From a bacterium (lineage in GTDB: Bacteria > Patescibacteriota > Patescibacteriia > Magasanikbacterales > GWA2-37-8), in contig JBDRCM010000012.1 in the NCBI GenBank assembly GCA_043821725.1, forward strand, positions 1 through 62,881: DNA of 62,881 nucleotides. The letters run 5' to 3'. The notes under the pieces were generated by a model. That model made no database searches and had not been told where the DNA came from. It saw nothing but the letters and a program-made list of their open reading frames with translations. Of this stretch, positions 3,110 to 37,591 are shown in pieces. The position numbers were made by a program, and so were the translations under genes. Positions within the stretch are counted from its first letter, which is position 1. Each line of letters starts with the position of its first letter.

Positions 3110-5095
3110 TTACTTTGCGCATCTTGATATTCCTTTTATATATGATCTGATATATGATTCAGCGCCTGCGACTGCCGCACATCTTAATCCTTTTCTCGTA
3201 CCATCAAAGCATACGCCAATTCGACCCTCTGGACGCGGATTAGGTACAATACAGCCTCCAACAGTGGTTTGGCAACATAAATATGAGCCACCGGGGCAAC
3301 CGCCACCAAAGTCATGTTTTGTAGTTGGAAGCGCCCAAGCATTTGGCGGAATGCAAGATGCTTTTATTAGATAGTCAACACTGACGCCTGATTTTAATTT
3401 CGACAGCAATTCCTCTTCGTTAAATTTTTCTGGCACGCATCTTTTGACTTTTAAGTATAAGTTATAAGAACCTGATCCCATGCCGTAGGCCGAAGCTGCA
3501 GATATCGGATTTGCAGTTTTCTTTGCCCATGTTCTTATTATCGCGGCAACAATAAGATTACCTTCAGCGTCATTTAGGAGCCAGTTACCTATGTCTTGGT
3601 CGGAAGCGCCTAAAGCAGGGCATTCTGGGCATTTTTTTGAGTGTTTATTAATTAGTTGTTCGCGTTGAGAAGCTGTATTAAGTATACCTTTTGCGTTACT
3701 TAAACTAACCTGCCCTAGTCCATAACAACAACCGGTTCTTGCTGTTGGATTCCAACCAGATTCTTTGCCGAGCTGAACGGCAAATAGGCAACCATTGAAG
3801 CCAAATTTATCTGCAATTTCATTTGCGAGTTTTTCATATATTGCATTACTTTTATAATCGTATGTAATTCCTGATACGCCTTCAAAATCGGGCATTTCGG
3901 CTTCTGCAATAAATTTTATCTTCAATGCTTTAAATTCAACAAGATCAGGGTTGATATTATATAGTAGAGCATAAGAGCCCCATGCGATTACAAGACCGAT
4001 GAATATCTGACCAATTTTTTTATACGCGCCTTGCGTTGTTTGCTTTTGATCGCCTTCGCCTTTTGTAATCCAGCCCTGGCCTGTAAGTATTACAATCCCC
4101 TGCATTAATATCATAAGCACGGCAACAATGCTTACAGCCACCATGCTAAATTTGTATAAAGCTGTAATATATTGACCGATCCAAGGGATGTGGATATAGC
4201 CCTCCGAATCCAATGTATTTTTTAAATCAGTTAAGGTCAAGCCGGGTATGCGGATACTTAACTTTGGTTGTTGTAAATCAAGAGTGAGCTTTGTGCCAAG
4301 CAGTGTTGGGGCGCCTTCATACGCCGATAGTGCATCTCCGGCCAGATAACATTTTTTATTAGGAAGATCACATAATGATTTGGAAAGATTACTGCCCATG
4401 GCGCTACATTCTTTGTCAGTGTTGCAATTTCCAACTAATTTAAAACATTCATCTTTAATACATCTTTGGCCTATAGCGCAAGTTTTTGTTCCGCATTTTT
4501 CCAGACTTTCAATATATGGACACTCTAACAATGCAGTGCAGTCTTTGGACACTTTTGTATAAACTTCCGATCCACTTTTATCATATGTGCTACAATTAGT
4601 ATGCGTCCACGCTGTTTTGCATCCAATAGTTGTTTTAGTTGTTCCTCCAACCATGGTGCCAACACAACAGAGTCCTGTTATTGTGGAGCCACCGCTCGTA
4701 GCAGGAGGAGCTGTACCCGGAATTATTTTTTCACATAAGTTTGTCGCAAACTTACATTCTTCATTTACTGAACAGTCTTCATTAGAAGCACAGGTACACT
4801 TTTTTTCTTTTGCGTCATAACCATGTTTGCATCCTGTAGCCTCGCATTGCCCGCTGGTTGTGTCGCATTTTCCGCTTGTGCATTCGCTATTGCTTTTGCA
4901 TTTGGTGTTGCAAATCTTATTTATGGAATCGCAGATTAAATTTGGCACACTATTGCACTCCGAATCATTGGTACAATTTTCTCCAACATTTTTTGCAACT
5001 GTATTTGAAGGCGAAAAAATATTAAAAAAACAGGCGAACAACACGACTACTATCATGATTTTGAATGCCTTTATCATAATTCTATTCTTCAACAA
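3110..5095 (-). CDS. exported cysteine-rich membrane protein with a lytic transglycosylase (SLT-like) domain
   Basis: 661 aa. N-terminal signal anchor, then a Cys-rich region with C-x2-[DNS]-x-[DE]-C modules (CTNDSEC, CKSNSEC, CASNEDC, CNTDKEC). Two central TM helices follow, then the GKESGWNP...YGLGQV motif typical of SLT catalytic domains, then a Cys-rich C-terminus. Confidence 0.7.
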   Translation of the reverse strand: MLKNRIMIKAFKIMIVVVLFACFFNIFSPSNTVAKNVGENCTNDSECNSVPNLICDSINKICNTKCKSNSECTSGKCDTTSGQCEATGCKHGYDAKEKKCTCASNEDCSVNEECKFATNLCEKIIPGTAPPATSGGSTITGLCCVGTMVGGTTKTTIGCKTAWTHTNCSTYDKSGSEVYTKVSKDCTALLECPYIESLEKCGTKTCAIGQRCIKDECFKLVGNCNTDKECSAMGSNLSKSLCDLPNKKCYLAGDALSAYEGAPTLLGTKLTLDLQQPKLSIRIPGLTLTDLKNTLDSEGYIHIPWIGQYITALYKFSMVAVSIVAVLMILMQGIVILTGQGWITKGEGDQKQTTQGAYKKIGQIFIGLVIAWGSYALLYNINPDLVEFKALKIKFIAEAEMPDFEGVSGITYDYKSNAIYEKLANEIADKFGFNGCLFAVQLGKESGWNPTARTGCCYGLGQVSLSNAKGILNTASQREQLINKHSKKCPECPALGASDQDIGNWLLNDAEGNLIVAAIIRTWAKKTANPISAASAYGMGSGSYNLYLKVKRCVPEKFNEEELLSKLKSGVSVDYLIKASCIPPNAWALPTTKHDFGGGCPGGSYLCCQTTVGGCIVPNPRPEGRIGVCFDGTRKGLRCAAVAGAESYIRSYIKGISRCAK

Positions 5096-7066: not shown

Positions 7067-8785
7067 TCATGTATTTTGTTCGGCCTGGGCTTCCTGCATT
7101 TGCCGTTGCCGGGCCACCGCTTGATTCATCTGCTGTTCTTTTTGCTTCTGCTTGAATACTTTTAAAAGCTCGTTTATTCTTTTTTGAATTTTATTTTTAA
7201 TTTTTTCCAATCTTTTTATTTTCATTTTATGCTTTTTTATTTTTGCATATGTCGTAGCAATGCTTCTAAGGCAGAAATAAATTGCTGGTCCTGTAAGCGG
7301 GCTCGCCCATCCAATGGTAAGCAATGTTGCAATGCCCAGCATTATTATGCTGATTACCAAATTAAATATTTTTCCTTTTAAAAGGGCTATTTGTATTCTT
7401 AGCGAGCGGATTAGGCGATCAATTTTTTTAAGCCGTTTTTTTAATGACCTCAACTGCTTTCTATGCTTTAGTCCCATTATGCCTCTTGCCCGCTTATTAA
7501 TAAAATCCTTGGCGCTGTTTGCGCCACGCTCTCGGATGCCTCTTTTTCTTTTCTTTTCTTTGGCTTTTTTTGACTGCATTTCATCCGCAGCCTTTTGCTG
7601 TTTGTCTTCTTTCAGTCCTTTTTGTTCAGGCACTTCACTATCTTGCGTTGGTTTGGCTTGTTCATCTTTTGACGGTTCTTTTTTTTCTTTTTCTCCGGGT
7701 TTTTGCTCTTCGGGTTTTTCTGTTGTCTGTTTTTCTTCGGGCTTGCTTTCATCTTTTGGTTTTTTTTGGCCTTCTGGCTTTTGTTCTTCAGGCCTTTTTT
7801 CTCCGGGTTTTTTTTCTTCGCCCTCTTCGGGCTTTTTCTCGCCTTCTTTCTCGTCTTTTTTTTCGCCTGCTTTTTCGTCCGATGGTTTTTCTTCAGGTTT
7901 TTTGTGTTCTTTTTCGCCTTTTTTTGGCTCTTCTTTTTTTTCTCCGCCTTTTTGTTCTTCGTCTTCTCCGTCTCCGAGTTTTTCTTCTTCACCTACTCCT
8001 TCTTTTTTACCTTCTTGATCTTGTCCTTGTTCTGCTTGTTTTTCACCTGGTTTTTGTTCCTTGGGCTCACCTTCTGCTTTTTTGCCTTCTGGCGCTTCTC
8101 CGGGTTTTTGTTCGCCTGGTTTTTGTTTTTCTTTATCTTCGTCTGATGGTTTTTCTTCGGGTTTGCCGGCTTCTTCTGGTTTTTGTTCTTCTGATTTTTT
8201 TTCACTTTCTCCTTCTTTGGATTTTTCGCCTTCTTTTTCCGGCTCCAGGCCTTGTTCTGGTTTTTCGCTCTCTGCTTTTTCTTCATTTGGTTTTTGTTCT
8301 TCGTCACCGGCTTCTTGTGGTTCTTGTTCGCCGGGTTCTTGATTTTCTTGCTCCTGTAAAATCGGCTCACCTTCTTCTTGTTGAGGTGCTATTGTTTGGG
8401 CTTGTTTGTTAGAAAGTTCTTCAGAAAGTTCTTCCTGATCTGCTTCAACTGCCGGTTCTTTTTTTGGTTTTTTTACTTCAAAATCCAATTCAACTGCGCC
8501 AGGTGATCCTACATTCCTACGATAGCCAACTCCTTTTACTCCTTGAATGTCAGCAACTTGTTCGCCCATTTCCGTCTTTAAGTCGTCTGAATCCATTTTT
8601 ACGGCTTTTTTCCCCTGCTTATAGCTTGTTTTTTGCGTTATATCAGCGCGCTTGGCAAAAAACGAGCCAGCGCTCTCTATGCCTTTATCGCGTAGTTTTC
8701 GTTTTTTTCTTACCTGCTTTGGGGCCGGCTTTTTTTTATTGTCTTTATTTTCATCCGGCATGAAATTAATGTTAATGTGTTGCAA
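7067..8785 (-). CDS. E/K/P-rich low-complexity protein with a C-terminal TM hairpin
   Basis: 572 aa. A central run of about 300 aa consists of EKPEE/QKPGE-like repeats, followed by a basic segment and hydrophobic helices (IFNLVISIIMLGIATLLTIGW...). The antisense and alternate-frame ORFs here are low-complexity artefacts. Confidence 0.65.
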   Translation of the reverse strand: MQHININFMPDENKDNKKKPAPKQVRKKRKLRDKGIESAGSFFAKRADITQKTSYKQGKKAVKMDSDDLKTEMGEQVADIQGVKGVGYRRNVGSPGAVELDFEVKKPKKEPAVEADQEELSEELSNKQAQTIAPQQEEGEPILQEQENQEPGEQEPQEAGDEEQKPNEEKAESEKPEQGLEPEKEGEKSKEGESEKKSEEQKPEEAGKPEEKPSDEDKEKQKPGEQKPGEAPEGKKAEGEPKEQKPGEKQAEQGQDQEGKKEGVGEEEKLGDGEDEEQKGGEKKEEPKKGEKEHKKPEEKPSDEKAGEKKDEKEGEKKPEEGEEKKPGEKRPEEQKPEGQKKPKDESKPEEKQTTEKPEEQKPGEKEKKEPSKDEQAKPTQDSEVPEQKGLKEDKQQKAADEMQSKKAKEKKRKRGIRERGANSAKDFINKRARGIMGLKHRKQLRSLKKRLKKIDRLIRSLRIQIALLKGKIFNLVISIIMLGIATLLTIGWASPLTGPAIYFCLRSIATTYAKIKKHKMKIKRLEKIKNKIQKRINELLKVFKQKQKEQQMNQAVARQRQMQEAQAEQNT

Positions 8786-33683: not shown

Positions 33684-34466
33684 ATGGAAAAATTTTTACA
33701 GGATATTATTAAAGAAGCCGGATTTCTCGCAAAAGGATATTATCAGCAGGAAATATCTCATACCTTTAAGTCAGATCCGACTGACATACTCACAGTTGCC
33801 GACACCGCGGTTGAAAGTTTTTTAATAAATAAAATACTTGAGCGCTATCCTGATCATGGAATAATTTCCGAAGAAAGGGAAGATCCAATAAATCCTGAGG
33901 CGGAATATGTTTGGGTGATTGATCCAATTGACGGGACTAGAAATTTTTCCCGCCATATAGCAATGTGGTGCACAATGGTAGGAATAACCAAAAAAGGAAA
34001 GCCCTATATGGGCGCGGTTTATGATGCTGTAAATGACGAACTATTTTTTGCGAAAAAAGGCAAGGGAGCTTTTTTAAATAACAACAAAATTCATGTGAGC
34101 AAGCATGCTGATGTAAAGCATTCATTTTTGGTTTTTAGCGGAGGGGTCATGAATCAAGATTCTCCATACAATGCAGGTGAATTTGAACGCTATGCTAAAT
34201 TTCATGACAAGCTTGTTGCTGAAGATGGCCATTGGATACATAATTTTGGAACCACAATGTCATTGTGCGCGCTGGCTGCCGGGCGCGTTGACGCAATGAT
34301 AATGAACAGCGGGCTATATCACGATTATTTGGCCAATTATGTGATTGCAACTGAAGCAGGGGCTCTGTTTACTGACAGCCATGGAAATGATTGGAAAAAA
34401 GGACGCATGGATGTTGTGGTGGCCAATTCAACTCTTCATAAAAATCTTATGGCAATGTTTAATTGA
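33684..34466 (+). CDS. inositol monophosphatase family protein
   Basis: 260 aa. SEE...WVIDPIDGTRNF metal-binding motifs. Confidence 0.88.
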   Translation: MEKFLQDIIKEAGFLAKGYYQQEISHTFKSDPTDILTVADTAVESFLINKILERYPDHGIISEEREDPINPEAEYVWVIDPIDGTRNFSRHIAMWCTMVGITKKGKPYMGAVYDAVNDELFFAKKGKGAFLNNNKIHVSKHADVKHSFLVFSGGVMNQDSPYNAGEFERYAKFHDKLVAEDGHWIHNFGTTMSLCALAAGRVDAMIMNSGLYHDYLANYVIATEAGALFTDSHGNDWKKGRMDVVVANSTLHKNLMAMFN

Positions 34467-34477
34467 TTTTATTGAAA

Positions 34478-37400
34478 ATGAAAATTATGAAAAAAAATAA
34501 TTTAAAAAAAATAAAGCCAAAATCACCTGCCTTTTTCAAAGCTTTGGCAGATAAGCAAAAATACAATCCTAAACTGATTGAATCAAAATGGCAGAAATAT
34601 TGGCAGGAAAACGCCATTTTTAATGTTAAAGAAGATAAAAACAAGGAAAAGTTTTACGCATTGATTGAGTTTCCATATCCTTCGGGCGACGGTCTTCATG
34701 TTGGACATGCCAGGCCGTTTACCGGAATGGATGTAATTGCGCGTAAAAAAAGAATGCAGGGCTTGAATGTGCTGTATCCCATTGGATTTGACGCTTTTGG
34801 ACTTCCAACTGAAAATCATGCCATTAAAACAGGGCGTGCTCCGGCTCAAGTAACAGCTGAAAACATAGCAACATTCACTTGCCAGCTTAAAATGCTCGGA
34901 TATAGTTTTGATTGGTTGCGATGCGTGAACACAACAGATCCGGATTATTACAAATGGACCCAGTGGATTTTTTTGCAATTATTTAAGCACGGCCTTGCGT
35001 ATAAAAAAAATATGCCCATCAATTGGTGCTTGGATTGTAAAATAGGTTTGGCCAATGAAGAAGTTGTTGAAGGCAGATGCGAGCGTTGCGGTGGGGAAGT
35101 TGAAAAGCGCGATAAAAGCCAATGGATGCTTGCAATTACAAAATATGCAGACAAGTTGTTGGACGGCTTGGATGAAGTTGACTATATTGAACGCGCGAAA
35201 ATTCAGCAGAAAAATTGGATTGGGAAGAGTGAGGGCGTAAGCATTAAATTTTCTGTCATTCTGAACGAGTCCAAACGGCGAAGTGAAGTATCCCTTGTGG
35301 CATTTACAACTCGTCCTGATACTTTATTCGGCGTTACATATATGGTGGTGGCGCCCGAGCATGAATTGATTAAGAAGTGTCAATCAATAATCACCAATCA
35401 GGACGAAATCAAAGATTACGTGAAAAAAGCCAAATTAAAATCCGATCTGCAAAGAGCCGAGATTCAAAAAGAAAAAACAGGCGTGGAATTAAAAGGCATA
35501 AAGGCAGTTAATCCGGTAAATAATCAAGAGATTCCAATCTGGGTTGCTGATTATGTACTGGATTCCTATGGCACGGGCGCTATAATGGCTGTTCCAGGGC
35601 ACGATGAAAGAGATTTTGAATTCGCTCAAATAATGGGCTTGGAAATAGTCAGGGTAGTAGTAGGGCTTGATGGGGACAAATCTCCAATTACGAAAATAGA
35701 ACAAGTTCAAGAAAAGGAAGGAAAAATGATGAATAGTGATTTTCTCAACGGATTGGACATACATGAGGCAACAAAAAAGATAATGGATTATATTGAAGAT
35801 AAGAAATGGGGCAAAAGAGAAATCAATTATAAACTCCGTGATTGGATATTTTCGCGCCAGCGGTATTGGGGCGAGCCAATTCCGTTGGTTCATTGCGAAA
35901 AGTGTGCGAGCAAAAAGCCAAAAATTTTACTAATTCATGGTTATGGCGGGCAAGATAAAGAAAATTGGTTTCCGTGGTTCAAAGCAAAGATGGAAAAAAA
36001 GGGATACGAAGTATTGATTCCGAATTTGCCAAATTCAGAAAATCCGAATTTAGATGAATGGTTAGACGCTTTAAATAAACTTGAAATCAAGTCAGATGAC
36101 AATCTTTTTGTCGTTGGACACAGTTTAGGAGGTCCCACTGCTTGTCATTTTATTATAAAAAATAATTTGAAAGTTAAAAAATTGGTTTTAGTAGCTCCTT
36201 GCGGTTATAGCAATGATTGGAAGCATTTGATGAAATATGATTTTCCAAAAGAAGCTCCGCAAATTATCACAAGTTTTATTCATGAGAAATTTGATTTTAA
36301 TAAATTAAATGAATTGGTTGAAAGTATAAGCTTGTATTTTTCAGAAGATGATCCATATATTCCTATTTCAACAAAGAATGATTATAAAGATGCCAAGGGA
36401 TTTGTCAGAATATATAAAAACAAGGGACATTTTAATAAAAAAATTTCCGGCATGACTGAATTTCCGGATATCTTATCTGAATTTCCAGAAGAATCAAGTA
36501 TTGGTTGGATCCCGCTTCCTGAAGATCAATTGCCATTAGAACTTCCAAAAATTGAAAAATACGAGCCAACTGATACGGGAGAGTCGCCATTAGCTGTTAT
36601 GGCGGATTGGGTAAATACAACATGCCCGAAATGCAAAGCGCCTGCCAAGCGTGAAACAGACACTATGCCGAATTGGGCGGGCAGTTCTTGGTATTTTTTG
36701 CGCTATTGTGACTCAAAAAATCATGAAAAATTCGCAAGCAAAAACAATCTTGAATATTGGGGGCCTGTTGACTGGTACAACGGGGGAATGGAGCATACAG
36801 TTTTGCATTTGCTGTATTCCCGCTTTTGGAACCATTTTTTATATGACATAAAAGCGGTTCCATTTAAGGAGCCATACAAAAAGCGCACTTCACACGGAAT
36901 GATTCTTGGAGAAGATGGAGAAAAGATGTCTAAATCGCGTGGTAATGTGATAAACCCGGATCAAATGGTTGACAAATTCGGCGCAGATGCTTTGCGAACA
37001 TATATAATGTTCATGGGACCGTTTGATCAGGCGGTCGCTTGGGATACCAACGGTGTTGTGGGAGTAAAAAGATTTTTAGACAGGGTATGGATATTGTCTC
37101 AAAAAATTGAAAAATCCGCAAAAGATGACAAGAAAATAGAGCGTCTTGTCCATAAAACAATAAAAAAAGTTACCGAAGATATTGATAAAATGCATTTTAA
37201 TACGGCAATTGCCAAAATGATGGAGATGGTTAATGAATTTGCAAAACATCCGACAATTTCAAAGTCACATTTTTCAGTTCTTATCAAACTACTTTCTCCG
37301 TTTGCTCCTCATGTATGCGAGGAATTATGGAAACAGCTTGGAAATGCATCTGGCATAGCGCTTGAACAATGGCCTTGTTATGATAAAGATAAAATTATTG

Positions 37401-37591
37401 AAGACAAAGCAGTAATAGCCGTACAAATTAACGGAAAAGTTCGTGATCAAATTGAGATTGATATTGACGCGGATGAGCAAACAGTTAAACAGCTTGCGCA
37501 AAAATCCGAAAAAGCTCAAAAATGGCTTAAAGGAAAAAATCCTAAGAAAATTATATATATAAAGGATAAATTAGTTAGTATTGTTGTTTAA
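34478..37591 (+). CDS. leuS: leucine--tRNA ligase carrying an inserted alpha/beta serine-hydrolase domain
   Basis: HVGH (HIGH-type) and KMSKS motifs, TTRPDT editing-domain entry, RQRYWGEPIP. A 196-aa insertion with GHSLGG lies at 35912-36499. The start is ambiguous (TTG 34463, ATG 34478 or ATG 34487). Confidence 0.93.
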   Translation: MKIMKKNNLKKIKPKSPAFFKALADKQKYNPKLIESKWQKYWQENAIFNVKEDKNKEKFYALIEFPYPSGDGLHVGHARPFTGMDVIARKKRMQGLNVLYPIGFDAFGLPTENHAIKTGRAPAQVTAENIATFTCQLKMLGYSFDWLRCVNTTDPDYYKWTQWIFLQLFKHGLAYKKNMPINWCLDCKIGLANEEVVEGRCERCGGEVEKRDKSQWMLAITKYADKLLDGLDEVDYIERAKIQQKNWIGKSEGVSIKFSVILNESKRRSEVSLVAFTTRPDTLFGVTYMVVAPEHELIKKCQSIITNQDEIKDYVKKAKLKSDLQRAEIQKEKTGVELKGIKAVNPVNNQEIPIWVADYVLDSYGTGAIMAVPGHDERDFEFAQIMGLEIVRVVVGLDGDKSPITKIEQVQEKEGKMMNSDFLNGLDIHEATKKIMDYIEDKKWGKREINYKLRDWIFSRQRYWGEPIPLVHCEKCASKKPKILLIHGYGGQDKENWFPWFKAKMEKKGYEVLIPNLPNSENPNLDEWLDALNKLEIKSDDNLFVVGHSLGGPTACHFIIKNNLKVKKLVLVAPCGYSNDWKHLMKYDFPKEAPQIITSFIHEKFDFNKLNELVESISLYFSEDDPYIPISTKNDYKDAKGFVRIYKNKGHFNKKISGMTEFPDILSEFPEESSIGWIPLPEDQLPLELPKIEKYEPTDTGESPLAVMADWVNTTCPKCKAPAKRETDTMPNWAGSSWYFLRYCDSKNHEKFASKNNLEYWGPVDWYNGGMEHTVLHLLYSRFWNHFLYDIKAVPFKEPYKKRTSHGMILGEDGEKMSKSRGNVINPDQMVDKFGADALRTYIMFMGPFDQAVAWDTNGVVGVKRFLDRVWILSQKIEKSAKDDKKIERLVHKTIKKVTEDIDKMHFNTAIAKMMEMVNEFAKHPTISKSHFSVLIKLLSPFAPHVCEELWKQLGNASGIALEQWPCYDKDKIIEDKAVIAVQINGKVRDQIEIDIDADEQTVKQLAQKSEKAQKWLKGKNPKKIIYIKDKLVSIVV

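What the first reader, a model, noticed from the sequence alone, without database searches (positions are those of the whole stretch)
35912..36499. Leucyl-tRNA synthetase with an inserted, apparently intact YdeN/RBBP9-type serine hydrolase domain
LeuS here is about 1,040 aa, against roughly 800-880 in typical bacteria. The extra 196 aa sit in frame between ...RQRYWGEPIPLVHCEKCAS and IGWIPLPEDQLPLELP.... In ordinary LeuS those two segments are adjacent (C-x2-C-G-x-VPVPE..LP).

The insert reads KILLIHGYGGQDKENWFPWFKAKMEKKGYEVLIPNLPNSENPNLDEWLDAL...LFVVGHSLGG...LVLVAP...YFSEDDPYIP...KNKGHF.... This matches the hallmark layout of the small alpha/beta 'Ser_hydrolase' family (B. subtilis YdeN, human RBBP9). 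It has the nucleophile elbow GHSLGG (Ser codon 36122-36124), an acidic residue in SEDDP (36347-36352) and His in GHF (36428-36430).

A complete catalytic triad inside an aminoacyl-tRNA synthetase is, to my knowledge, not a described architecture. It could be an extra editing or deacylase activity, or a moonlighting esterase.
Basis: partly seen in the sequence, partly recalled or inferred. Interest (0 to 1): 0.85.

Follow-up and report, generated by a model that had tools for sequence, protein, structure and literature searches.

The report
Serine hydrolase nested inside leucyl-tRNA synthetase
The enzyme that loads leucine onto tRNA here carries a complete, apparently active small esterase/peptidase domain in one of its surface loops; the arrangement was not found described in the papers searched, recurs across many ultra-small (CPR/Patescibacteria) bacteria, and may add an extra hydrolytic, proofreading-type activity.

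Summary
Window 34463-37591 (+) encodes an intact bacterial-type LeuRS of 1042 aa. It has HIGH, KMSKS, CP1 editing motifs and both Zn2 zinc knuckles.

A 196-aa YdeN/RBBP9-type serine hydrolase domain (nt 35912-36499) sits exactly in the turn after the first Zn2 CxxC. It scores 71 bits on Pfam PF06821 and E=5e-19 against YdeN. The AF2 model has pLDDT 96 and TM 0.80-0.84 to 1uxo. The triad is Ser554, Asp630, His656.

It is not an assembly artefact. 79 of the 121 closest LeuRS, all labelled Patescibacteria where a label can be trusted, carry the domain at the same junction. Ser is kept in 79/79 and His in 78/79. dN/dS is as low as in the LeuRS core.

The nearest free-standing homologues lie directly next to a plain leuS. 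Other relatives are fused to a tRNA-binding OB fold or to NUDIX. Relatives also use a second hot-spot inside CP1, holding NUDIX, HAD, ITPase or methyltransferase domains.

RBBP9 removes amino acids that have a free alpha-amine from amides or esters. I therefore infer, without direct proof, an aminoacyl-ester hydrolase acting on aminoacyl-tRNA or aminoacyl-adenylate. I found no paper describing this architecture.

The parts
34463..37591 (+). leuS ORF: bacterial-type leucyl-tRNA synthetase, 1042 aa, with a nested hydrolase domain
   Evidence: TIGR00396 996 bits. AF2 full-length model has mean pLDDT 85 and pTM 0.78. Best PDB fold matches are LeuRS structures 5on2, 2bte and 7nu3.
34697..34708 (+). 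HIGH signature (H79-V-G-H82)
   Evidence: H79, G81 and H82 are invariant in a 47-sequence alignment. Aligned to Tth LeuRS.
35210..35794 (+). CP1 editing domain (aa 250-444), uninterrupted in this protein. Editing motifs TTRPDT (35306-35323) and HDERD (35600-35614) are intact.
   Evidence: PF13603 scores 206 bits and covers profile positions 1-184 of 185. The motifs align to Tth TTRPDT and AHDQRD. T287, H380, D381, R383 and D384 are invariant.
35894..35905 (+). First Zn2 zinc knuckle, C478-E-K-C481
   Evidence: Aligns to Tth C439/C442. Invariant in relatives with and without the insert. Codons verified.
35912..36499 (+). Inserted YdeN/RBBP9-type serine hydrolase domain (aa 484-679)
   Evidence: PF06821 scores 71 bits. 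YdeN matches at E=5e-19. AF2 model of the insert alone has pLDDT 96.3 and pTM 0.92. Foldseek gives 1uxo TM 0.80/0.84 and RBBP9 TM 0.76-0.80.
35936..35941 (+). H492-G493 'HG' motif after strand beta1; I take it to be the oxyanion-hole motif of alpha/beta hydrolases (my inference from its position, not tested)
   Evidence: In the alignment of embedded and free-standing homologues, Gly is invariant and His is nearly invariant.
36122..36124 (+). Catalytic nucleophile Ser554 in G-H-S-L-G-G
   Evidence: Conserved in 79 of 79 LeuRS-embedded domains. Invariant. Aligns to RBBP9 Ser75.
36350..36352 (+). Catalytic acid Asp630 in S-E-D-D-P-Y
   Evidence: Invariant in the 25-sequence alignment. Aligns to RBBP9 Asp138. 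A second class of inserts has the Asp three residues earlier.
36428..36430 (+). Catalytic His656 in K-G-H-F
   Evidence: Conserved in 78 of 79 embedded domains. Invariant. Aligns to RBBP9 His165.
36623..36634 (+). Second Zn2 zinc knuckle, C721-P-K-C724
   Evidence: Aligns to Tth C484/C487. Invariant.
36923..36937 (+). KMSKS signature (K821-S825)
   Evidence: Invariant. Aligned to Tth.
33684..34466 (+). Upstream inositol-monophosphatase-family gene. Its stop overlaps the leuS TTG start by 4 nt, so the two may be co-translated. Listed as context only.
   Evidence: PF00459 scores 181 bits. This neighbour is not conserved in the related loci examined.

Best explanation
Shown:
- The gene encodes a fully equipped bacterial-type LeuRS.
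- A complete, folded YdeN/RBBP9-family serine hydrolase domain with an intact Ser-Asp-His triad is nested in the hairpin turn of its Zn2 zinc knuckle.
- The arrangement is an old feature, maintained by selection, of LeuRS in many Patescibacteria (CPR). It is not an accident of this genome.

Inferred: the domain is an aminoacyl-ester hydrolase that works with LeuRS.
- Ser554, activated by His656 and Asp630, would attack the carbonyl of an amino acid that has a free alpha-amine and is esterified to the 3'-terminal adenosine of tRNA. A less likely target is the same amino acid anhydride-linked to AMP.
- This would form an aminoacyl-enzyme, which water then resolves.
- The effect would be a second hydrolytic clearance site on the synthetase, alongside the intact CP1 editing site. 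It would act on mis-made or unwanted aminoacyl products that CP1 does not handle.

Which aminoacyl species it clears is unknown.
For: Identity of the domain:
- The insertion point is mapped.

Conservation and selection:
- 79 of the 121 closest LeuRS carry the insert at the same junction, with Ser in 79/79 and His in 78/79.
- dN/dS of the insert is 0.05-0.16, against 0.09-0.12 for the LeuRS C-terminal core in the same four pairs.
- A scan of GTDB species representatives found 22 further embedded cases.

Functional link to LeuRS and tRNA:
1. The nearest free-standing homologues are encoded directly beside a plain leuS. P0124 lies 40 bp upstream, P0129 lies 1 bp downstream, P0135 lies 125 bp upstream, and locus L052 is also directly upstream.
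2. By best BLAST hit, those adjacent genes resemble LeuRS-embedded domains or one another, and not any of the 204 other free-standing domains.
3. The same hydrolase is also inserted at a second LeuRS site, inside CP1.
4. At least 15 protein clusters fuse the hydrolase to a PF01588 tRNA-binding OB fold, with the catalytic Asp and His kept in all 15 and Ser in 14 of 15. That fold binds the tRNA 3' CCA end (PMC12021450).

Chemistry of the family:
- RBBP9 needs a free alpha-amine.
[quoted passage not shown] - It was also reported, by title, as a valacyclovir-activating enzyme (Shenoy 2020, listed in PMC7730578). From my own knowledge, valacyclovir is an L-valyl ester of a nucleoside analogue.

Among the 150 best representatives, every long host protein is LeuRS and none is another synthetase.
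Against: - No biochemical data exist for any member of this LeuRS-linked clade.
- CP1 editing motifs are intact, so there is no obvious gap in proofreading to fill.
- I could not obtain model coordinates. Whether the hydrolase pocket faces the tRNA acceptor path is therefore unknown.
- PF01588-type domains also occur in the CsaA chaperone (my own knowledge), so the fusion is not proof of a tRNA substrate.
- Unrelated enzymes occupy the other LeuRS hot-spot, and the hydrolase also fuses to adenylate kinase, NUDIX and peptidase S51. That pattern fits a looser 'housekeeping enzyme' theme.
- About 30 close LeuRS relatives lack any insert, so it is dispensable.
- More distant family members show no leuS linkage.
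- dS in the selection test is near saturation.
Confidence: 0.45

Rival explanations
1. Leucine supply. The domain is an RBBP9-like aminopeptidase that clips N-terminal leucine or other hydrophobic residues from scavenged peptides and hands them to the LeuRS active site. This would be useful in amino-acid-auxotrophic CPR cells.
For: - RBBP9 is an aminopeptidase, and its acyl-enzyme traps included Leu/Ile.
- The association is specific to LeuRS.
- One relative is fused to a peptidase S51 domain.
Against: - RBBP9 prefers aromatic residues.
- The fusions to a tRNA-binding OB fold, and to NUDIX and adenylate kinase, are not explained.
- Free leucine diffuses quickly, so tethering gives little benefit (inference).
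Confidence: 0.15
2. Passenger enzyme. Two LeuRS surface loops are simply permissive. Small housekeeping hydrolases (esterase, NUDIX, HAD, ITPase) ride in an essential, constitutively expressed gene of a regulation-poor minimal genome. Their chemistry has nothing to do with leucylation.
For: - Diverse unrelated domains occur at the CP1 hot-spot.
- The Zn2 loop varies from 3 to 42 aa even in plain LeuRS.
- Near-identical LeuRS cores differ in which inserts they carry.
- The inserted NUDIX, HAD and ITPase domains fit no specific subfamily.
Against: - This does not explain why free-standing copies of the same clade sit next to leuS on either side.
- It does not explain why only LeuRS is the host.
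- It does not explain the tRNA-binding-domain fusions.
Confidence: 0.2
3. Self-defence. The domain destroys aminoacyl-nucleotide 'Trojan-horse' inhibitors of LeuRS, meaning leucyl-adenylate mimics of the agrocin-84 or microcin-C type, right at their target.
For: - Patchy gain and loss, and class swapping, among close relatives resemble an arms race.
- The partner inserts (NUDIX, HAD, ITPase) all act on nucleotides.
- The precedent of the MccF serine peptidase and the MccE acetyltransferase is from my own knowledge only. An NCBIfam model for IleRS with a GNAT domain exists.
Against: - No inhibitor or biosynthetic cluster is known in these habitats.
- Nothing in the window points to one.
- The tRNA-binding fusions are unexplained.
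Confidence: 0.07
4. Leucyl-transferase. The serine accepts leucine from Leu-tRNA or Leu-AMP and passes it to a non-water acceptor such as a lipid, cell-wall precursor or small molecule. LeuRS would then act like an adenylation domain.
For: The family forms stable aminoacyl-enzyme intermediates. That alpha/beta hydrolases can act as acyltransferases is general knowledge.
Against: No acceptor-binding domain or pathway genes are linked. The context is not conserved.
Confidence: 0.05
5. Artefact or selfish element: a chimeric assembly, an intein, or a decaying insertion.
For: The insert has 30.4% GC against 38.8% in the LeuRS core, which places it in the lowest 0.1% of same-size windows.
Against: - The same GC drop occurs in 15 of 15 relatives, so it is a property of the domain.
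- There is no Hint or endonuclease domain.
- The frame is intact and dN/dS is low.
- The domain occurs in dozens of independent assemblies.
Confidence: 0.01

Closest known systems
B. subtilis YdeN (PDB 1uxo) and human RBBP9 (2qs9, 7oex); Pfam Ser_hydrolase PF06821
   Same: Same family and fold: about 190 aa, a minimal alpha/beta hydrolase. It shares GHSxG, the D-P and GHF triad motifs and the W-x-x-W motif. Scores are E=5e-19 and TM 0.80-0.84 to 1uxo.
   Different: Known members are free-standing proteins. This one is nested inside another enzyme with linkers of about 3 and 7 residues, and it belongs to a subclade that is physically or genomically tied to LeuRS. Identity is about 27% to YdeN and 21% to RBBP9.
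Bacterial-type LeuRS, e.g. T. thermophilus 1h3n/2bte, E. coli 4aq7, N. gonorrhoeae 6q89
   Same: All catalytic and editing signatures are present, as are both zinc knuckles of the Zn2 module, the anticodon-binding domain and the C-terminal domain.
   Different: About 198 extra residues sit at Tth Gly443 in the Zn2 hairpin. The leucine-specific domain (Tth 581-636) is reduced to 3 residues.
Cis and trans aminoacyl-tRNA editing modules: CP1 of LeuRS/IleRS/ValRS, YbaK/ProXp, AlaX, DTD
   Same: The proposed job is the same: hydrolysing the aminoacyl ester on tRNA. Like several of these modules, the hydrolase occurs both fused to and free-standing beside its synthetase.
   Different: There is no homology to any of them. 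It would use a covalent serine-nucleophile mechanism. In the papers searched, the term 'serine hydrolase' did not occur alongside the tRNA-deacylase terms. The activity itself is not shown.
Trbp111/Arc1p/MCP1-type tRNA-binding OB fold (PF01588)
   Same: Relatives of the insert are fused to this domain in at least 15 clusters. The domain binds the tRNA CCA end and can deacylate Ala-tRNA (PMC12021450).
   Different: The window protein has no such domain in LeuRS. It is relevant only as a Rosetta-stone clue.
IleRS with an added GNAT domain (NCBIfam NF040702 ileS_w_GNAT)
   Same: It is another class Ia synthetase carrying an extra small-molecule-modifying enzyme domain. The model exists in NCBIfam.
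   Different: The synthetase and the fold are different, and that form is curated as a named exception. No curated model covers the LeuRS-hydrolase form.

Membership tests
Bacterial-type leucyl-tRNA synthetase (TIGR00396 leuS_bact) | Whole-protein score above the curated cut-off | tested here: met
   996.4 bits against a cut-off of 548.4, split into two stretches by the insert.
Bacterial-type leucyl-tRNA synthetase (TIGR00396 leuS_bact) | HIGH and KMSKS class I signatures | tested here: met
   HVGH at aa 79-82 and KMSKS at aa 821-825, both invariant in relatives.
Bacterial-type leucyl-tRNA synthetase (TIGR00396 leuS_bact) | CP1 editing domain with the T-rich motif and the conserved Asp residues | tested here: met
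   PF13603 scores 206 bits. TTRPDT and HDERD align to Tth TTRPDT and AHDQRD.
Bacterial-type leucyl-tRNA synthetase (TIGR00396 leuS_bact) | Leucylation of tRNALeu | not testable with these tools
   Needs an enzyme assay. It is the only leuS in the window, but the rest of the genome is unseen.
Ser_hydrolase / YdeN-RBBP9 family (PF06821) | Pfam score above the gathering threshold over the full profile | tested here: met
   71.2 bits against 22, covering profile positions 1-168 of 172.
Ser_hydrolase / YdeN-RBBP9 family (PF06821) | Ser-Asp-His triad at the family positions | tested here: met
   S554, D630 and H656 align to RBBP9 S75, D138 and H165. They are invariant.
Ser_hydrolase / YdeN-RBBP9 family (PF06821) | Compact alpha/beta hydrolase fold matching solved members | tested here: met
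   AF2 pLDDT 96.3. 1uxo TM 0.80/0.84 at rmsd 2.5; RBBP9 TM 0.76-0.80.
Ser_hydrolase / YdeN-RBBP9 family (PF06821) | Hydrolytic activity on aminoacyl amides or esters with a free alpha-amine | not testable with these tools
   Known for RBBP9 only (PMC8866121).
Known aminoacyl-tRNA editing domain families (CP1, YbaK/INS, AlaX/tRNA_SAD, DTD) | Sequence homology of the insert to one of these families | tested here: not met
   Pfam and NCBIfam scans of the insert hit only alpha/beta hydrolase families. The 'works like' claim therefore rests on context and not on membership.
Inteins / mobile in-frame elements | Hint splicing domain or homing endonuclease, with a Cys/Ser/Thr at the junctions | tested here: not met
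   No such Pfam hit. The junctions are CAS|KKPK and ESS|IGW.

The most novel reading that the evidence does not exclude
CPR/Patescibacteria LeuRS is a modular platform that carries extra catalytic domains at two fixed loops. The Zn2-loop domain would be the first aminoacyl-tRNA (or aminoacyl-adenylate) deacylase built on an alpha/beta serine-hydrolase fold. That would make it a new, covalent-catalysis class of translational proofreading factor, existing in three forms: nested in LeuRS, encoded beside leuS, and fused to a tRNA-binding domain.
Probability: 0.35. Interest if true: 0.85.

Novelty: new variant of a known kind. Interest (0 to 1): 0.7.

Why it matters
All known aminoacyl-tRNA proofreading domains belong to a handful of folds. 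A serine-hydrolase type would be a new mechanistic class.

It would also show that minimal-genome CPR bacteria invest in extra quality control or product clearance on one particular synthetase.

Even if the hydrolase acts on something else, the finding has value. Two fixed loops of an essential, universally conserved enzyme repeatedly host intact foreign enzymes: esterase, NUDIX, HAD, ITPase and methyltransferase. That is a striking case of domain nesting, useful for protein engineering and for understanding how reduced genomes package functions.

It also gives an orphan family (YdeN/RBBP9) a concrete, testable physiological partner.

Tried and rejected
1. A word-index homologue search with the insert alone found only 2 distant free-standing proteins. 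The exhaustive representative search and the full-length search were needed to find the relatives.
2. The low GC of the insert looked like recent horizontal transfer. This was rejected because 15 of 15 relatives show the same drop.
3. The idea that the hydrolase replaces a dead CP1 editing site was rejected, because the CP1 motifs are intact and invariant.
4. Independent insertions of different hydrolase classes were considered, because insert identity (26-29%) disagrees with core identity (74-76%) for the closest relatives. The junctions are identical in all classes, so I favour one old insertion followed by divergence, loss or recombination. This is not resolved. The NJ tree is rough.
5. The first alignment was too diverse for the genome scan. 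A closer subset worked, but its patterns (ENWFPW, HSLG[AG]P[TA]AC) bias the sample toward one insert class.
6. Subfamily assignment of the NUDIX, HAD and ITPase inserts was tried. No NCBIfam equivalog was reached, so there is no substrate clue.
7. Contigs for P0128, P0141 and P0142 were too short to show neighbours.
8. No paper on this architecture was found in ten searches. Surveys of unusual synthetase domains in Leishmania and fungi do not mention it.
9. Docking of the domain relative to the tRNA path could not be assessed, because the structure tool returns no coordinates.
Full report
**1. What is in the sequence**

A single ORF at 34463-37591 (+) encodes 1042 aa. Pfam finds the two halves of the class I catalytic domain, the LeuRS CP1 editing domain (aa 250-444, 206 bits, uninterrupted) and the anticodon-binding domain. 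Between them it finds Ser_hydrolase PF06821 at aa 488-671. PF06821 scores 66 bits in the whole protein and 71 bits for the insert alone, against a gathering score of 22. NCBIfam leuS_bact scores 996 bits against a cut-off of 548, in two stretches.

The alignment to T. thermophilus LeuRS (1h3n) is unambiguous. Window aa 32-482 match Tth 2-443, aa 681-817 match Tth 443-580, and aa 821-1042 match Tth 637-876. About 198 residues are therefore inserted exactly at Tth Gly443. This is the turn after the first CxxC (Tth C439/C442, window C478/C481) of the zinc module. The second knuckle of that module is Tth C484/C487, window C721/C724. A N. gonorrhoeae LeuRS paper lists a 'Zn2' zinc-binding domain among the LeuRS domains (PMC9424281); equating it with this module is my inference, because the passages read give no residue range. 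All four cysteines are invariant in 47 relatives, with or without the insert.

HIGH (HVGH), KMSKS and the CP1 editing motifs (TTRPDT, HDERD) are intact. There is no second leuS or hydrolase in the window.

**2. The insert is a bona fide, folded YdeN/RBBP9-type hydrolase**

- phmmer against PDB sequences gives YdeN 1uxo at E=5e-19 and RBBP9 at E=6e-8. GHSLGG aligns to the RBBP9 Ser75 motif, SEDDPY to Asp138 and KGHF to His165.
- AlphaFold2 on an alignment of 25 embedded and free-standing homologues gives pLDDT 96.3 and pTM 0.92, with a beta-alpha-beta pattern.
- Foldseek ranks 1uxo first (TM 0.80/0.84, rmsd 2.5 Å), followed by RBBP9 structures (TM 0.76-0.80).
- In the full-length model (mean pLDDT 85, pTM 0.78) the insert blocks score about 87-96, falling to 76-82 in the last three blocks. 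The LeuRS part matches solved LeuRS structures.
- Linkers are short: about 3 residues on the N side and about 7 on the C side.

**3. It is a conserved lineage feature and not an artefact**

- Among the 120 best LeuRS relatives, plus the window protein, 79 carry a 240-277-aa segment between the RQRYWG.PIP motif and the ETDT motif. Plain forms have 57-96 aa there.
- Source names, where given, are Magasanikbacteria, Falkowbacteria, Uhrbacteria and 'Patescibacteria group'.
- The nucleophile Ser is present in 79/79 and His in 78/79. The acid is either in S-x-D-D-P (52 sequences, including the window) or three residues earlier in an A-D-x-x-F variant.
- The junctions are the same in all variants: CxxC, then 1-4 residues (often x-K-K), then strand beta1 ending in HG. 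On the C side the pattern is (N/T/S)-G-W-[IV]-P-L-P-E. Plain LeuRS have 3-4 residues or a 12-42-aa loop at that spot.
- A scan of GTDB species representatives found 22 more embedded cases: 17 at the Zn2 site and 5 inside CP1.
- dN/dS of the insert in four pairs is 0.05-0.16, against 0.09-0.12 for the adjacent LeuRS core. dS is 0.9-2.5, so these numbers are rough.
- The insert is AT-richer than the core: 30.4% against 38.8% GC. The same is true in 15 of 15 relatives, so this is not a sign of recent transfer.

**4. Distribution is patchy**

On a rough NJ tree of 769 core columns, plain and decorated LeuRS interleave, and near-identical cores differ in their inserts. The window's closest core relatives (74-76% identity) carry inserts only 26-29% identical to the window's. 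Slightly more distant relatives (70-72% core identity) have inserts 46-49% identical. Because the junctions are shared, I favour one old insertion followed by divergence, repeated loss and/or recombination. This is not settled.

**5. A second hot-spot**

Relatives carry further domains inside CP1. After PF13603 profile position about 145 they carry NUDIX, HAD, a methyltransferase or another Ser_hydrolase. At profile position about 20 they carry a PD-(D/E)XK or Ham1/ITPase domain. The window protein has none of these. The NUDIX, HAD and ITPase inserts reach no NCBIfam equivalog.

**6. Evidence that the hydrolase is functionally tied to LeuRS and tRNA**

(a) The closest free-standing homologues of the insert are encoded directly next to a plain leuS:
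- P0124 (49% identity): 40 bp upstream.
- P0129: 1 bp downstream.
- P0135: 125 bp upstream.
- Peribacteria locus L052: directly upstream.

(b) In a nearest-neighbour test on 349 domains, these adjacent genes hit LeuRS-embedded domains or one another (3/3). They do not hit the 204 other free-standing copies. Zn2-site domains hit Zn2-site domains in 86 of 89 cases.

(c) More distant members show no leuS within 4-5 kb. These include 57 GTDB loci from Peregrinibacteria, DPANN archaea and Clostridia, plus P0137 and P0001.

(d) At least 15 clusters fuse the hydrolase to a PF01588 tRNA-binding OB fold, with Asp and His kept in all 15 and Ser in 14 of 15. That fold binds the tRNA 3' CCA end and can itself deacylate Ala-tRNA (PMC12021450).

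(e) Other fusions are to NUDIX (in both orders), adenylate kinase and peptidase S51.

(f) Of the 150 best representatives, 22 are LeuRS and none is another synthetase.

**7. Chemistry of the family**

RBBP9 is a serine aminopeptidase that requires a free alpha-amine. [quoted passage not shown] It was also reported, by title, as a valacyclovir-activating enzyme (Shenoy et al. 2020, listed in PMC7730578). From my own knowledge, valacyclovir is an L-valyl ester of a nucleoside analogue. An aminoacyl ester on a nucleoside with a free amine is what the 3' end of an aminoacyl-tRNA looks like.

**8. Interpretation**

The identity and architecture are shown. The mechanism is inferred.

My preferred reading is that the domain is an aminoacyl-ester hydrolase serving LeuRS. 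It would give a second clearance site for aminoacyl-tRNA, or possibly aminoacyl-adenylate, in addition to CP1.

Main weaknesses:
- There is no assay.
- There is no spatial information on where the pocket points.
- CP1 is intact, so no obvious gap exists.
- The mixed bag of other inserted enzymes fits a looser 'housekeeping passenger' picture.

Rivals, in order of my estimate: a passenger enzyme in a permissive loop; an aminopeptidase feeding leucine; detoxification of aminoacyl-nucleotide inhibitors; a leucyl-transferase; an artefact.

**9. Novelty**

Ten full-text searches, and checks of synthetase domain surveys, found no description of an alpha/beta serine hydrolase in or with a synthetase. 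Automated annotation has noticed the two-domain nature, but no curated model exists. I file it as a new variant of a known kind: a LeuRS with a nested extra enzyme. There is a realistic chance that it represents a new class of proofreading factor.

Noticed in passing
Relatives only: e.g. P0011 aa 378-494 (NUDIX), P0026 aa 377-535 (HAD), P0072 aa 421-554 (methyltransferase), P0122 aa 277-390 (PDDEXK_3), P0134 aa 255-326 (Ham1/ITPase): There is a second insertion hot-spot inside the CP1 editing domain of CPR LeuRS. It hosts several different intact enzyme domains, often together with the Zn2-site hydrolase. One protein (P0039, 1358 aa) carries NUDIX, HAD and Ser_hydrolase. Whether CP1 editing survives these insertions was not checked.
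   Followed up: partly
window 36914-36922 (aa 818-820): The window LeuRS lacks the leucine-specific domain: Tth residues 581-636 correspond to only 3 residues here. Plain relatives are about 800-850 aa long, which would fit the same absence, but their alignment at this region was not examined.
   Followed up: partly
window 33684-34466 (+): An inositol-monophosphatase-family (SuhB/CysQ-like) gene ends 4 nt inside the leuS ORF, overlapping its TTG start, which suggests translational coupling. This neighbour is not seen in the related loci examined.
   Followed up: partly
window 35912-36499: The insert has 30.4% GC (GC3 24.5%) against 38.8% for the LeuRS core, which places it in the lowest 0.1% of same-size windows. 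The same drop, averaging -5.5 points, occurs in 15 of 15 relatives. The cause was not determined; it could be amino-acid composition or weaker codon constraint.
   Followed up: yes
P0163 and P0273-P0286; L087 5640-6542: These are free-standing Ser_hydrolase + tRNA_bind (PF01588) proteins of about 300 aa in Patescibacteria (the one labelled example is Harrisonbacteria). NCBI names one of them 'methionine--tRNA ligase subunit beta'. This is an apparently uncharacterised architecture.
   Followed up: partly
P0174 (415 aa), P0209 and P0215, P0249: The same hydrolase family is fused to adenylate kinase, to NUDIX (in both orders) and to peptidase S51, which hints at a link to nucleotide or aminoacyl metabolism.
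   Followed up: no
P0123 (1169 aa); P0009 and P0046: Some LeuRS variants carry two Ser_hydrolase domains. P0009 and P0046 have one at CP1 and one at Zn2. P0123 has a tandem pair before the editing domain and seems to lack the N-terminal Rossmann half, which could mean a split gene or a mis-called start.
   Followed up: no
L007 (OZ246416.1, 886,192-bp 'chromosome') and other loci titled 'uncultured Gammaproteobacteria': Several records that carry the CPR-type LeuRS-hydrolase are labelled Gammaproteobacteria or Saccharibacteria. Given the genome size and the LeuRS similarity, these labels are probably wrong.
   Followed up: no
window 3110-5095 (-) and 7067-8785 (-): Two large ORFs (661 and 572 aa) have no Pfam hit at E<=1e-5. 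The second overlaps ORFs on the opposite strand.
   Followed up: no
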